A DNA stretch of 64,000 bases from Styela clava. Its lineage: Eukaryota. The position numbers were made by a program. Shown here one piece after another: positions 39,001-45,000 of this stretch (its first letter is position 1; each line of letters begins with the position of its first letter). The DNA lies in the NCBI RefSeq assembly GCF_964204865.1, contig NC_135263.1, forward strand, positions 6,448,001 through 6,512,000. Direction: 5' to 3'.

Positions 39001-42000
39001 CAAATAGTTTCATCGACTTATTTATCCACTTCCTTCTACTGCATGAAATCCTCACTTTACAGTAGTATAAAACTCATTCATTCCATAAAATTTTTGTATT
39101 CCATGAATGTAATTATGAATGCAAATGTCGAAATGGGCATAGAATAAAAACACGTTTTTTAAGCACTTGGAAATGCTTAGGCGGAGTTGCTAGCATATTT
39201 AAAACAAGGATTTCTTATAAGAGACACCAAGCTATGATGAATCGTGTAAGCTCCTTCACACTGCAACTCCAAATTAAAAAACTCAATAAAACTCTGATGT
39301 TAAAAATGCACTGAGCAGAATCTGTTCTGTTGTCGCGTCAAAGCGATCTACCTGATTAAAATATATATATAGATTCATACCATACATATGTTTTAAGTTT
39401 TTCGCATGATACACGTTCCATGAATGAATCGAGTTATTTTTCTATGAATGAACCGATGAACAAGTGACATAGCAATCAAATATAAAATTATTGCACAGAT
39501 TGAAAAACTTTTCCAATGTAGTTTGCAATAAAGTTGAAACAAAATGAAAACAATTTTCATCTCACTACTCTTTTAGATCTAACTAATGAAATTATGCAAA
39601 ATCCACTCTTTGTGAGCTGCGACTCTTGCAAAGTACTTTGGCACATTGAGTTTTCCGCACGGTGCAACCTGGAAACTTGCTACTCCAACAACATAGTTGT
39701 TTCCATTCCATTCACATACAAGAGAACTTCCATCATCGCCCTAGAAAATCAATACAGTGTGATTGTATACCATAATTACATTACCCTATCAGTGACATGT
39801 ACGATTAAAATATTATAACAATCTAATTGAAGCCTTCATTCTTCAAGTAAAATCAACATGGGATTTACCTTATATCAACATTGAAGATTGAACAAGTAAA
39901 ATAGTTTTATGCAAAGGGAAGGAAGGAATGAAGAGTCCCAAAATAGCAAATAGAGGAATCTTACAAAAAAGGTTGTGAACCAGTGCCACAAATTATGTAA
40001 AATGAGTATAATGGCAGGAGATATGTTGAATAAAAATTGGACAATTTTAAACTTTGAAACAATATACAGACAAAAATGTAAAGTCATTATACTCGATCTT
40101 TAGATTCATTCATTCAAGATTCAATTAGCGGTTAAGTTCACTGCAGTTCTACTTTGTTTTCGGTTACCTTTTTGCCAGAACGTCTATTAGCATAATTGTT
40201 GCAACATTGCCAATCTTTGATAATGTTATGATGGTATTAATATAGCCTAGTAACTTACTGGGAGTGAGAAAAGATCAAGTTTGGGAATTGTTGTATTGTA
40301 TTTGTAAAAATTTTAAGATCAACACATTGAGAATGAGGTACTAGATGAATGCAATGCAACAAGTGTTGAGATGGGATTCCTATATATACTAAATAGACAA
40401 TAACTTAAACTGAAAGTTCAAGGATAATAATATATAATGACTTGTGGCCAGATTGAATAAAAGTCCCTGAACTGCAAGTCACGAGTCAGCTGAGTCAATC
40501 ACTGAGTTATGTTAAACTGGTGGTTAGTTGAGTCTGAGCCATTTCATTTGGATGACACAAGTCTTTGATAAATGGCTGAGTTAATACCTCAAGCACCCCA
40601 AACACTGCCTGAGACAATGCAATTTCAACAACCATTATTCTTTATTAACATGCTATTGCACTTGAAGAACGAATATTATTCTTACAACAACCCACAGTAT
40701 GTTTTGAGATGAAACTTACATCACAAAGAGTTTGCTGCGTTCCATCAAAATGCCCAGCACATATTATCGAAGTTGTATTAATTGTTCTTCCAAATGATGT
40801 TGTTGACAATGCATCACAATGGTCATCAGATAGTACTGGTAGTTCTATTGAATGAAGTGGTTGAATACCTGAAAATAATTGAACATGAATATTACCGAAA
40901 CTTTGACTTTCTAAAATTTGTAGGTTGCGATTCCAGAATATATTTCTGAATGGGTGGCGAGAAATATTCAATCTCCGTACAATATAAGCAGAGCTGGTGT
41001 CCTTTCTTCCTGTTTTTTTTTTCACAAAGCTTTTCAGACTTGTATACTTTATGCTAACCATATCTCATGAATAATACAATGTGTATATAATCACTGGGAA
41101 CAACTTACTTATGAGAAGTTACTTTGCATTGAATTAGTTCAAAACATTTACGCTGCTTACCTCCGTTACCTTCTGCATCCCAACCAGCCACTCTACAATA
41201 CTGCTTTGCTATTTCTATTCTACCAAAATTTGAGGAATCCGATACCACATGAGGGTAAGGAAGGCATGCAACTGATGCATCAAGAGTAGATTTAACAGCA
41301 ATCTGAAAGTATAGACATATTTTTCATCAAAAATTCTTGATGATTATAATTTATGAATCAGTTAATACTTCTATTTTTATAGTGGGCAACAAGCAAAATC
41401 AGGTTGCAAAACATAAAACAAAATTTCTGTTTCTTTTTAAATTTCTGTCTATTTAAATAATAATGACTCAACATCGCTTGAATGTTGAGCTTGTAGCCCG
41501 TTAGCGATTACATGATCCATCCTGTCAGAGCAGACTATAAATTCGCAATATGCCATTACGATGCATTTGCAGACTCCTCATTACGATTATAACCTATAGT
41601 CATATTATAATTACCGTACTGGAAATAAAAGCGTTAAATAAAATTGTATAATGCTAGTCCATCAGAAATTTCTGTGTTCATTTTTAGCGCAATTGAATGC
41701 TGATATATAGACAAATACAAACCCATTGACTTATTAAGAGGTCTGGCTAACCTTGATCACCGCAATATCATTATTCATGTTGTCATCAAATTCAGGATGA
41801 ACATGAATATTTTTAATTCTCACTAAAGTTGCTCCATCACTTGTATTCATTGATTGTTTGTTGTCTGTGTTTTGAGCCGTAAATACATGGATAAGATTCA
41901 GCAAGATTCGCAGGCTTGATCCTCCATAACCAACAATGACATCTGACATGCTTTAGATTTAAATTTCAGATATATGTAAAAATTGTTAGTAGGCAGAAAA

Positions 42001-45000
42001 TAAACTTAGGAAATAAACAAACGCTGACTTATAAACAAATTTACACGATGGCCTAGTGGTTAAAGAGCTATACCCTAATTGTGTTGGCATCGCATGTTAT
42101 ACTTCTCAAGTTCGAATCCCATGCCCACCACCTCACCCAAGGTGTAAGAAAAGATTCGGTCCATCCAGAAACAGTAGATCCTTGCATATCGTTGGATATC
42201 AGTGGCTGCTTTTAAAGTTCATTGCTTGGAATGAAAGCATCAAATAAAAAAATCAAATCTGCCTACAAAATGTTATTACTGAAAATTGAAAAATTCTTTG
42301 CCAAGTTCATCTTTAAAACTATATGATAATTCTAAATAAAACAAACAAAAACACTCATTATTTCTTTTCTGAAGTTATTAGAACTTTAGTTAGGTTGTTG
42401 ATCAATTGGAAGAATAATTTGTATTTTTAGTTATATTCTTTATAAAAACAACTATGCAAGAATCGATATGAATTTATTTTAAATCTTAAATTCTTTTTCC
42501 GGAATTGATAATAAATCTACTACCTTTCTTTTGTTAAGTCTGATACACAATGAGCTGCTGTTATCAGGTACTGTGAGTGAACAAACGTTGCGCCACATAA
42601 ATGCTGTTGTCCTTGTAGAGATATTAAACTTGCATGCCAAGGAACCGATGATACTTCAGTTTCTGTGCCACCAACCAAACGTCCTTTCTTTTTTCCAGCT
42701 ACTGATGCACAATCTATTAATTGGTAAATGATAAGTGTTGTTAAAAAAAAAATAATTTAAAAGTCAATTGTATTTTAAACTTAAAAACAAACAAGTTGTC
42801 TCTAGTGTTGATGAGGCGTCATTCATTGACTCAAATTAAGCTTGAGTCGCCATCTACCAAAATCTAAAAAAAATATCAAAATTGGGAATTCCTTCAATGA
42901 GATCGATGTGCTTGCATATTATGTACGAAAGATCAAATCTTGGCTCCATTTTGGTGATGATGGGTCGTCGTACTGGTTACAAATCTTTCAAATTTGATCA
43001 ATATTTTGATTCAACACAAGTTAATGTAAAAAAAAAAGCCAATTGAACCCTTTCCGAGCCCCCAGTTTGAAGAACGCTGATCTAAATGATATGATTTCGT
43101 ATGATATGATACGTCATCGACCACAAGTACACTGACACTGAAACGTACGCCAACCCTGAAAGACATTTAGATAACATATGTGATTAAACTGCCTACCTTG
43201 GCCATAAGTAAAATTTCCCCACCAGATGAATGGCCTGAGAGTACCTATAATTTGGCATACCTAACGGCATTGTTCAATAGACAATAGTAAAAAGAATATA
43301 GTTCAGAATAACCTGCTAATTTCTCAGGTAGTTGCTCTGTATCCCATGTTGCTGAAAAACCAGTTGCAACAAAGTCATTATTGCTGAAGAATCGAATTAA
43401 CATTTTCCCATTCATGCTAATGAATGGACCCAGGGTTGTTTTCCATTGTCCTGAAAATAATTTTTTCAGTCATTCAAAAAACAAAGACTATCTTACTAAT
43501 ACTCTGACATGTATGGAAATAATAGTGCGCTTAAATTTACCACACTATGTGCCCGTCAATTATTGTCAGCTTATCCAGACTACACAAAGTTTTGACATCA
43601 AATATTGGTATAACAGTACCTAGAATGGGTTCAAAACATATTACACCAATTTTTTTGTGATAAATCTTGTTTTACTGAATGACTGATTCAAACCATGGGC
43701 ATACAGATAAAAAGTTATGTTTTGCATCAAAGAAAGATAAAAACTATTGATGTATAATGGAGTAGAGTAAGAATATGAAGTAAGATTCCTGGTAAAATTG
43801 AGAGGTTCGTACAGATATTGCTATTATTTTTCAAAGCAAAGACAAAAGTCAATCCACAGTGTGAGATCTATTTTACTTAAAAGTGCTAAGCTGAATAAGA
43901 ATGCGTCCAGATCTATTCTTATGAATGTAAAGTATAAAGTTAAATGAAATTATTATATAGCTGACCACAAATTCGCCCAAGAACATTAGAATTCTCCAGT
44001 GAGGAGTCATCTCCATCAACAATTACTAAACTATCTTCAGTACATCTTCCATATTCATTTGGTTTGGATTTCCCAATGTCAACATTGTGTAACCACAGAT
44101 ATATTTTTTTCCCGGGAGCTAAAAAAATGTATGAGGTTGGAAACATGATTGATAGATATCCAAGAATATAAAATTTGCGGTTATGTGGCAAGATGATCTG
44201 ATTTATTTTATTATTAAGACATCAAGAATGTCAAGGATGACAAAATTTGCATACAAATAATTTGCATTGATTAAACTGTGAAACATAATTCATGTGTTGA
44301 ATTATCAACAAGTTAAACAGGTATTGCGCACCACTCACATAAAATGCAAATAAGATTAAATAAAAAAAAATTTCGATAGATATCATTCAATCAAAATTAT
44401 AATTTTCTTATTTGTCAAAGGAGAATTTAATAAAAACAAGATTACAACACTCTCACAGAAGTAAAGGATACTCATTTCATAGCAAAGTTACAGGAGACAA
44501 CTAAAATTTCAAAAGCTGTTTGGGTGAGAATTAATATTCTTGTTATATTTGTTAATAAGTACATATTTTACAACAGTATAAGCATAGCAGTCAGTCCAAT
44601 GATTTTGATATAAAGATGTGATTGTGCAAATATGCGTCATCTGACCAGCAATTGCATAAATAATGCTGAGATAACATGAAGTCTACCAATCTTTTGAAAA
44701 TGATCATAACCCACAAAATTAAAAACGGTGATCCTCATGTAGAGCAATATATTGAAGAAATGGCGAGTGTGTTCCTATGTAGAACAACTATCGAATCGCC
44801 AAATAAAGGAAACTTCCTCAGTGATTAAACACATGACATTGATATATTATCAGAGCCTATCAAAGAGAAAACAATTATAATACAAATGAAGATTACCAGA
44901 CAAATACCTATAATAGTCCAGTCACACAAAATATTCAATCTATATTTCAAAGGAAATCCTGGGCTACTGAATACTCCACTGTCACTGGATAAAACTCCAC

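What the first reader, a model, noticed from the sequence alone, without database searches (positions are those of the whole stretch)
39723..42713. Catalytic Ser195 replaced by Asp while the zymogen activation site is kept: a cleavage-activated pseudoprotease
Seen: the last exon starts GGC GAT GAT GGA AGT (GDDGS instead of GDSGG; Asp codon 39734-39732) and the S1 position 189 is Thr (TLCD|GDD). His (TAAHC), Asp (NDIA), Asp194, the linker Cys (DCAS) and a basic KKKGR|LVGG site are all retained, with no stops or frameshifts. Known: HGF/MSP and haptoglobin are inactive protease folds that are still proteolytically processed and act as ligands, and arthropod clip-domain serine protease homologs act as cofactors. 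Inference: cleavage at R|L switches a binding surface rather than an enzyme.
Basis: partly seen in the sequence, partly recalled or inferred. Interest (0 to 1): 0.75.

Follow-up and report, generated by a model that had tools for sequence, protein, structure and literature searches.

The report
Inactive trypsin-like domain with Asp195
This is the last domain of a large secreted mosaic protein gene of an invertebrate-type genome: a trypsin-fold domain that has lost its catalytic serine but kept its cleavage switch, which is a common and already known kind of protein.

Summary
On the minus strand, five AG/GT-bounded, phase-consistent exons (42713-39579) encode a chymotrypsin-fold domain. The last exon starts GGC GAT GAT GGA AGT. 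The second Asp (39734-39732) aligns under the catalytic Ser of solved proteases. R|LVGG, His40, TAAHC, NNDIA, Asp194 and ten cysteines are kept. Gly216 is Gln, Gly226 is Lys and position 189 is Thr, so the S1 pocket is remodelled too.

No second or alternative exon exists in the window. A DNA-PKcs gene starts about 2 kb downstream. The frames are maintained: 0 stops in 277 codons, P about 4e-9.

The domain follows a CUB domain, ricin-type lectin pieces and at least 11 Sushi repeats on the same strand.

Best reading: a non-catalytic serine-protease homolog, probably cut at R|L into a disulfide-linked two-chain form, acting as a binding module. Cleavage, conservation and function are untested.

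Such homologs are common. A beetle survey records Asp at position 195 among 125 homologs. So this is a new member of a known kind, of low to moderate interest.

The parts
42524..42713 (-). Exon A of the protease-like domain. It holds the linker Cys, KKKGR|LVGG (cut predicted between 42679 and 42678), His40, Cys42, TAAHC (His57 codon 42552-42550) and Cys58. It enters with 2 bases of a split codon and leaves with 2 bases.
   Evidence: Pfam Trypsin 1.8e-10, profile 2-46. Aligns to plasma kallikrein at 8.9e-10 with R|IVGG and TAAHC in register.
41752..41950 (-). Exon B. It holds NNDIAVIK with the Asp102 codon at 41769-41767 and one N-glycosylation sequon (NTS).
   Evidence: Pfam Trypsin E 0.011 (16 bits, below the 20.6 cut-off), profile 42-93. 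PDB alignments of NNDIA are weak, E 1.4 and 1.6.
41161..41302 (-). Exon C. It holds ACLP (the Cys122 position), YCRVAGWD (the Cys136 position; the GWG motif reads GWD). A second in-phase donor at 41170 would remove 3 residues.
   Evidence: Splice sites and phase. It is the only frame between exons B and D with Cys and GW. No tool recognises it alone: Pfam, PDB, atlas 0.88. The residue numbers come from motif register, from recall.
40720..40868 (-). Exon D. It holds the Cys168, Cys182, Thr189 and Cys191 positions, ends ..TLCD, and has one sequon (NTT).
   Evidence: Atlas: 28 of 30 nearest clusters are in the Trypsin set, top score 0.93. It aligns weakly to cationic trypsin (E 0.4) with both Cys in register. 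Pfam finds nothing.
39579..39740 (-). Exon E, the last exon. It reads Gly193-Asp194-Asp195 (GAT 39734-39732)-Gly-Ser-Ser, then Cys201, Ser214-Phe215-Gln216, Cys220 and Lys226. The stop codon TAG is at 39581-39579.
   Evidence: Pfam Trypsin 8.4e-6, profile 178-220. Ungapped alignment to kallikrein-4 and HGF activator.
43313..45011 (-). CUB domain in three exons: 45011-44908, 44118-43966 and 43450-43313. It joins exon A in phase; the last G plus AT gives the Asp before the linker Cys.
   Evidence: Pfam CUB 1.6e-4 (22.4 bits, above the cut-off) and 0.012 for the first two pieces, and none for the third. Sequence and phases. The donors at 43965 (GTC) and 43312 (GTT) are weak.
45731..46626 (-). Two frames of a ricin-type beta-trefoil lectin region. 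Candidate exons 46626-46432 and 45936-45731 are phase-compatible with each other and with the first CUB exon.
   Evidence: Pfam Ricin_B_lectin E 0.0067 (17.1 bits, below the cut-off of 29) for 46399-46668, and none for 45727-46014. Splice phases.
47721..63999 (-). Upstream array on the same strand: 13 frames matching Sushi/CCP (11 above Pfam's cut-off) and two more ricin-type lectin frames (55560-55811 and 59253-59579). The array runs off the window end. That it belongs to the same gene is inferred, not shown.
   Evidence: The junction from the last Sushi frame (47741, 1 base left over) to the lectin frame was not resolved.

Best explanation
The region encodes the C-terminal domain of a large secreted mosaic protein (Sushi repeats, ricin-type lectin, CUB). 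The domain is a chymotrypsin-fold serine-protease homolog that cannot cut peptides in the normal way. The nucleophile Ser195 is Asp, and the S1 pocket is filled or recharged (Thr189, Gln216, Lys226).

The parts of the zymogen switch are kept: Arg15, the Leu16-Val-Gly-Gly new end, His40, Asp194, Gly193, and the cysteine that ties the pro-part to the domain. The most likely mechanism therefore has three steps:
1. A trypsin-like convertase cuts at R|L.
2. The new Leu16 amino group pairs with Asp194 and orders the activation loops.
3. The remodelled pseudo-active-site face then serves as a binding surface, while a disulfide keeps the domain attached to the lectin/Sushi/CUB chain.

Shown: the exon structure, the substitutions and the retained residues. 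Inferred: loss of activity, the cleavage, the switch, the binding role, and that the Sushi array belongs to the same gene.
For: - Exon model with AG/GT sites and consistent phases 1|2|0|1|0.
- Pfam Trypsin on exons A, B and E in colinear order, and the atlas Trypsin set for exon D.
- Asp under Ser195, Gln under Gly216 and Lys under Gly226 in two independent alignments.
- R|LVGG, His40 and TAAHC in register with plasma kallikrein.
- Ten cysteines, enough for five disulfides, with none left over.
- 0 stops in 277 codons (P about 4e-9) and coding periodicity, GC 0.51/0.42/0.25 by codon position.
- No alternative or duplicated exon in the window, and the next gene starts near 37540.
- Phase-compatible junctions from lectin to CUB to exon A.
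- Background from papers (passages read): the Ile16-Asp194 switch, and the statement that HGF and MSP gain activity on cleavage and bind through the pseudo-active-site region (PMC13194640). Prohaptoglobin is cut after Arg, stays disulfide-linked, and needs the cut for haemoglobin binding (PMC7355005). Most beetle homologs are presumed trypsin-processed, and Asp occurs at position 195 (PMC11172050).
Against: - No cDNA, ortholog or population data were available, so selection on GDD is untested.
- Leu16 differs from the Ile/Val that the papers name for the new N-terminus.
- The GWG motif reads GWD, which changes a glycine of the activation domain (motif register, from recall).
- Gly197 and Pro198 are Ser-Ser.
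- Exon C is recognised by no tool alone, and exons B and D only weakly by Pfam and PDB.
- Two upstream donors are weak.
- Loss of activity is inferred from residue identity and was not measured.
Confidence: 0.55

Rival explanations
1. The domain is non-catalytic, but the activation site is a relic. The protein works as a single chain, and the S1-fold domain is a constitutive binding or structural module with no cleavage switch.
For: Leu16 instead of Ile/Val. GWD instead of GWG and Ser-Ser after Gly196 alter the activation domain. Nothing in the window shows a convertase or cleavage.
Against: Arg15, LVGG, His40, Asp194, Gly193 and the linker cysteine are all retained together. That is hard to explain if the switch were unused while the nearby pocket residues changed freely.
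Confidence: 0.2
2. It is a recently dead, unprocessed pseudogene or a decaying terminal exon, and the Asp is one of several neutral changes.
For: Several active-site and pocket residues are changed at once. Exon C and parts of B and D are diverged enough to escape Pfam and PDB searches. No expression or ortholog data are available.
Against: 0 stops in 277 codons at an intron stop density of 0.0674. All ten splice signals are intact with consistent phases. All ten cysteines are kept. There is coding-type codon-position bias. The changes cluster at catalytic and specificity positions rather than across the fold.
Confidence: 0.12
3. It is still an enzyme. Asp195 with His57 acts as a non-canonical nucleophile or general base, or the site binds a metal ion and does other chemistry.
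For: His57, Asp102, Ser214 and Gly193 are kept around Asp195. A bacterial trypsin-fold protein repurposed for metal binding is in print (PMC4794232, search listing only). One beetle homolog with Thr at position 195 kept low activity (PMC11172050).
Against: I found no chymotrypsin-fold peptidase with an Asp nucleophile. The literal motif search gave 28 papers, and none of the 20 listed was relevant by title. Gln216 and Lys226 obstruct the S1 pocket.
Confidence: 0.05
4. The gene model or the assembly is wrong, and the true last exon carries GDSGG.
For: The model has no cDNA support. Only one haplotype and one window were seen.
Against: No other GDxG(G)-type frame exists in six frames of the whole window. 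tblastn of exon E against the window finds nothing else better than E 0.21. The interval to the next gene is about 2 kb. GAT is at least two changes from any Ser codon. The junction is phase 0 on both sides with strong signals.
Confidence: 0.03

Closest known systems
Serine protease homologs (SPHs) of arthropods, for example the 125 SPHs of Tenebrio molitor
   Same: S1A fold with a substituted triad, secreted, basic residue at the activation site. Asp is among the recorded replacements of Ser195. Some carry CUB or Sushi modules (PMC11172050, passages).
   Different: The well-studied cofactor SPHs carry clip domains and usually Gly at position 195 (recall). Here the preceding module is CUB, and no clip domain was found in the 23 upstream frames scanned. 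The host here is unidentified. The beetle paper's table of individual sequences is a supplement I could not open.
Haptoglobin
   Same: An inactive S1-fold chain at the C-terminus, preceded by CCP/Sushi modules. It is cut after Arg at the activation-site equivalent and held together by a disulfide, and the cut is needed for ligand binding (PMC7355005).
   Different: Haptoglobin is a small vertebrate protein with one or two CCPs next to the S1 domain. It lacks both His57 and Ser195 (recall). Here His57 is kept, a CUB domain lies next to the S1 domain, and the N-terminal part is far larger.
HGF and MSP (plasminogen-related growth factors)
   Same: Zymogen-like precursors that gain activity on cleavage into two chains. 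The pseudo-active-site region is the receptor-binding face (PMC13194640).
   Different: Those proteins have kringle and PAN N-terminal domains (recall). None was seen among the frames scanned here. Their triad substitutions differ (recall).
MASP/C1r/C1s and horseshoe-crab factor C (mosaic recognition proteases)
   Same: CUB, Sushi/CCP and, in factor C, lectin modules lie upstream of a C-terminal S1 domain with an Arg activation site and a linking disulfide (recall).
   Different: Those are active enzymes with GDSGG. The MASP order is CUB-EGF-CUB-CCP-CCP-SP, with a CCP next to the protease (recall). Here CUB is adjacent, the Sushi repeats are many, and the serine is gone.
PRSS23 / PRSS35
   Same: Secreted S1-fold proteins proposed or annotated as non-catalytic (PMC13194640).
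   Different: This is the opposite route. PRSS23 keeps the triad but has lost the Ile16, Asp194 and His40 switch. Here the switch residues are kept and the nucleophile is lost.

Membership tests
Chymotrypsin-fold S1A domain (Pfam PF00089 Trypsin) | Sequence match to the family profile along the domain | tested here: met
   Tested exon by exon only. A 1.8e-10 and E 8.4e-6 are above the cut-off. B is 0.011, below the cut-off. C and D get no Pfam hit. D is placed in the Trypsin set by the atlas, 28 of 30 hits. C is unrecognised. The joined domain was not scored.
Chymotrypsin-fold S1A domain (Pfam PF00089 Trypsin) | Conserved disulfide framework | tested here: met
   Ten Cys in the five pieces. 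Six are in register with protease Cys in alignments. The pairing scheme is from recall and was not modelled.
Active S1 serine peptidase | His57-Asp102-Ser195 catalytic triad | tested here: not met
   His and Asp are present. Position 195 is Asp, aligned under Ser of kallikrein-4 and HGF activator.
Active S1 serine peptidase | Open S1 pocket with small residues at 216 and 226 | tested here: not met
   Gln is under Gly216 and Lys under Gly226 in both alignments shown. The role of residues 189, 216 and 226 is as stated in PMC11172050.
Serine protease homolog / S1 pseudoprotease | S1 fold with one or more triad substitutions | tested here: met
   The definition is as worded in PMC11172050.
Serine protease homolog / S1 pseudoprotease | No measurable proteolytic activity | not testable with these tools
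   This needs recombinant protein, chromogenic substrates and an activity-based probe.
Cleavage-activated S1 homolog (HGF/MSP/haptoglobin type) | Basic P1, hydrophobic new N-terminus, Asp194 and a linking disulfide all retained | tested here: met
   R|LVGG, Asp194 and the linker Cys plus the Cys in ACLP are present. Leu rather than Ile/Val is a deviation.
Cleavage-activated S1 homolog (HGF/MSP/haptoglobin type) | Cleavage occurs and changes binding | not testable with these tools
   This needs protein chemistry on the native or recombinant protein.
Clip-domain SPH of arthropods | Clip domain N-terminal to the S1-like domain | tested here: not met
   The adjacent upstream module is CUB. There was no clip hit in the 23 upstream frames scanned against Pfam. 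Only frames of 60 aa or more were scanned.
MASP/C1r/C1s | CUB-EGF-CUB-CCP-CCP-SP order with an active protease | tested here: not met
   The order here is Sushi array, lectin, CUB, S1-like. There was no EGF hit in the frames scanned, and Ser195 is absent. The family's domain order is from recall.

The most novel reading that the evidence does not exclude
Asp195, together with His57 and the new Lys226 in a closed S1 pocket, forms a purpose-built charged site for a ligand or a metal ion. The site is assembled only after the R|L cut. The protein would then be a lectin/Sushi/CUB-tethered receptor switched on by a protease cascade. That would make it an independent invertebrate counterpart of the haptoglobin or MASP-derived recognition molecules, conserved as a family rather than a one-off.
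Probability: 0.1. Interest if true: 0.55.

Novelty: new member of a known kind. Interest (0 to 1): 0.25.

Why it matters
If the model holds, this adds a non-arthropod-style example of an inactive protease domain that keeps its zymogen switch. It sits at the end of a lectin/Sushi/CUB mosaic, an architecture typical of extracellular recognition and cascade proteins. That could help trace how protease cascades recruit non-catalytic partners. The principle itself is already established for HGF, MSP, haptoglobin and insect homologs, so the gain is incremental.

Tried and rejected
- Alternative last exon: motif scans of all six frames and tblastn of each exon alone against the window found none. The best non-self hits were E 0.032 (exon A, 23 residues) and worse, and I took them for chance.
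- The plus strand at 42953-42970 also reads GDDGSS. It uses different codons and there is no DNA repeat in 39000-46000. I rejected it as coincidence.
- Exon C: Pfam at E up to 10, also with the longer frame, PDB at E up to 10 and the atlas (0.88, recognition 1252) all gave nothing. It stays supported by position, phase and motifs only.
- tRNA or SINE idea for the intron stretch near 42040-42170: ARAGORN found 0 genes and Rfam 0 matches in the window. Not supported.
- Literal motif search in papers (GDDGG, GDDGS, GDDGP): 28 papers, and none of the 20 listed was relevant by title. The search for the serine-protease-homolog/Sushi/CUB/ricin combination and the mollusc-oriented search gave no description of this architecture in the listings I saw.
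- Intron phases: PMC3707919 (passages) confirms conserved S1 intron positions and one extra intron in plasma kallikrein, but it prints no phase numbers. The I-II-I-0 pattern is my recollection.
- Clip, kringle and EGF domains: none in the frames scanned, but only frames of 60 aa or more were examined.

Not done:
- Scoring, folding or fold-searching the spliced domain.
- The organism was not identified. I take the window for a non-human, invertebrate-type animal genome (33.7% GC, 0.3-1 kb introns, this gene next to a DNA-PKcs gene). That is an inference.
- Supplementary Table S1 of PMC11172050, which would list the beetle homologs with Asp195, was not opened because supplements are closed.

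
Full report
**What is there.** The window is AT-rich DNA (33.7% GC, no N) with short introns. On the minus strand between 42713 and 39579 there are five open pieces bounded by AG acceptors and GT donors: A 42713-42524, B 41950-41752, C 41302-41161, D 40868-40720 and E 39740-39579 including the stop. Their phases fit one another (1|2|0|1|0).

The joined step (scoring, folding or fold-searching the assembled domain) was left out.

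| Exon | Pfam Trypsin | Other evidence |
|---|---|---|
| A | 1.8e-10, profile 2-46 | Plasma kallikrein 8.9e-10 |
| B | 0.011, profile 42-93, below cut-off | PDB E 1.4 and 1.6 |
| C | none, even at E up to 10 | PDB none; atlas 0.88, unrecognised |
| D | none, even at E up to 10 | Atlas Trypsin set, 28 of 30 hits, top 0.93; cationic trypsin E 0.4 with two Cys in register |
| E | 8.4e-6, profile 178-220 | Kallikrein-4 and HGF activator |

Exon C is therefore carried by its position, phase, splice signals and motifs. It is also the only frame between B and D with Cys and GW. The five pieces hold 277 in-frame codons without a stop, while the gene's own introns have a stop density of 0.0674 (P about 4e-9). 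Each piece has stops in its other two frames, and GC by codon position is 0.51/0.42/0.25 against 0.31 in introns.

**The substitutions.** Ungapped alignments put GDDGS under GDSGG of kallikrein-4 and of HGF activator, so Asp replaces the catalytic Ser. In the same two alignments Gln lies under Gly216 and Lys under Gly226, while Ser214, Cys201, Cys220 and Pro225 are kept. The column numbers are standard chymotrypsin numbering, from knowledge. GAT differs from every Ser codon by at least two bases, so a single miscall or SNP cannot explain it. Thr189 follows from counting back from the Cys before GDD. No alignment reached it, because stops four residues short. Gly197 and Pro198 are Ser-Ser, and the GWG motif reads GWD (register from recall).

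**What is retained.**
- KKKGR|LVGG, His40 (QHLCG) and TAAHC align with the activation site, His40 and His57 motif of plasma kallikrein.
- NNDIA aligns with the Asp102 motif of two proteases, weakly.
- Gly193 and Asp194 are kept.
- There are ten cysteines: one in the pro-part and nine in the domain. That fits the five-disulfide scheme of chymotrypsinogen (recall), including the bond that would tether the pro-part after cleavage.
- There are two N-glycosylation sequons.

**No other last exon.** Six-frame motif scans of the whole window and of 37500-40719 find no other GDxG(G) frame on this strand. tblastn of each exon alone against the window finds only itself, with the next best at E 0.03 or worse. 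About 2 kb downstream on the same strand a DNA-PKcs gene begins (frames; PF20502 at 1.6e-26), so there is little room for more.

**Context.**
- Directly upstream, three exons encode a CUB domain: 45011-44908, 44118-43966 and 43450-43313. Pfam gives 1.6e-4 and 0.012 for the first two.
That donor (GTT) and the one before it (GTC) are weak.
- Further upstream are ricin-type lectin frames (E 0.0067, 8.9e-6 and 0.021, all below Pfam's cut-off) and 13 Sushi frames, 11 above the cut-off, reaching the window end.
- The lectin-to-CUB junctions are phase-compatible. The link from the last Sushi frame was not resolved.
- One gene is thus likely but not shown.

**Mechanism.** The papers I read in passages describe the switch: cleavage exposes Ile/Val16, whose amino group pairs with Asp194 and orders the activation loops. 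HGF and MSP gain activity on such cleavage and bind their receptors through the pseudo-active-site region (PMC13194640). Prohaptoglobin is cut after Arg, stays disulfide-linked to its CCP chain, and needs the cut to bind haemoglobin (PMC7355005).

The present domain keeps every named switch residue, with Leu at position 16, but has lost the nucleophile and the open S1 pocket. I therefore favour a cleavage-dependent binding module at 0.55. The rivals are a constitutive single-chain module (0.2), a young pseudogene (0.12), an odd enzyme or metal site (0.05) and a model error (0.03).

**Against my reading.** There is no transcript, ortholog or protein evidence. Leu16 and GWD deviate from the usual switch. 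Exon C is unrecognised on its own. Two upstream donors are weak.

**Known or new.** In Tenebrio molitor 125 of 269 S1A sequences are homologs with triad substitutions. Ser195 is replaced by G, T, N, L, V or I, and in 1-4 cases each by A, M, D, E, K, R, Y or F. Most are presumed trypsin-processed, and CUB and Sushi modules occur in the family (PMC11172050, passages; its Table S1 was not seen). The finding is therefore a new member of a known kind. The particular Thr/Gln/Lys pocket and the Sushi-lectin-CUB setting are details I did not find described (searches; listings only).

**Not checked.** The organism was not identified. I do not take the contig for human.

Noticed in passing
window 1-37540, minus strand: A DNA-PKcs (PRKDC-type) gene in many exons lies directly downstream of the protease-like gene. 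One frame matches PF20502 at 1.6e-26, another at 2.2e-4. The likely first coding frame is near 37304-37540.
   Followed up: partly
window 42953-42970, plus strand: The opposite strand, inside the intron between the CUB exon and exon A, also reads GDDGSS. It uses different codons and there is no DNA repeat in 39000-46000. Taken as coincidence.
   Followed up: yes
window 41161-41170, minus strand: Exon C has two in-phase GT donors 9 bases apart (after 41170 and after 41161). Use of the first would drop three residues (GNG) from the loop after GWD.
   Followed up: no
window 42040-42170, minus strand (intron A/B): A stretch that looked tRNA-like by eye (a T-arm-like motif), suggesting a SINE fragment. 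ARAGORN and Rfam found nothing in the window.
   Followed up: partly
window 53852-54468, both strands: Unusually long open frames on both strands (165 and 161 aa) lie inside the Sushi-array region, with internally similar segments. This is possibly a repeat or mobile-element remnant. It was not scanned against any library.
   Followed up: no
window 7872-8282: A 207-bp unit repeated twice in tandem, 93% matches, within the DNA-PKcs gene region.
   Followed up: no
window 58292-58570, minus strand: A frame with a Sushi-like cysteine and tryptophan pattern by eye that Pfam did not recognise. The Sushi count may therefore be an undercount.
   Followed up: no
window 43965-43964 and 43312-43311, minus strand: Two donors needed by the CUB exon chain have C or T at the third intron base (GTC, GTT) rather than the usual purine. 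Either this genome tolerates such donors or the CUB model needs cDNA correction.
   Followed up: partly
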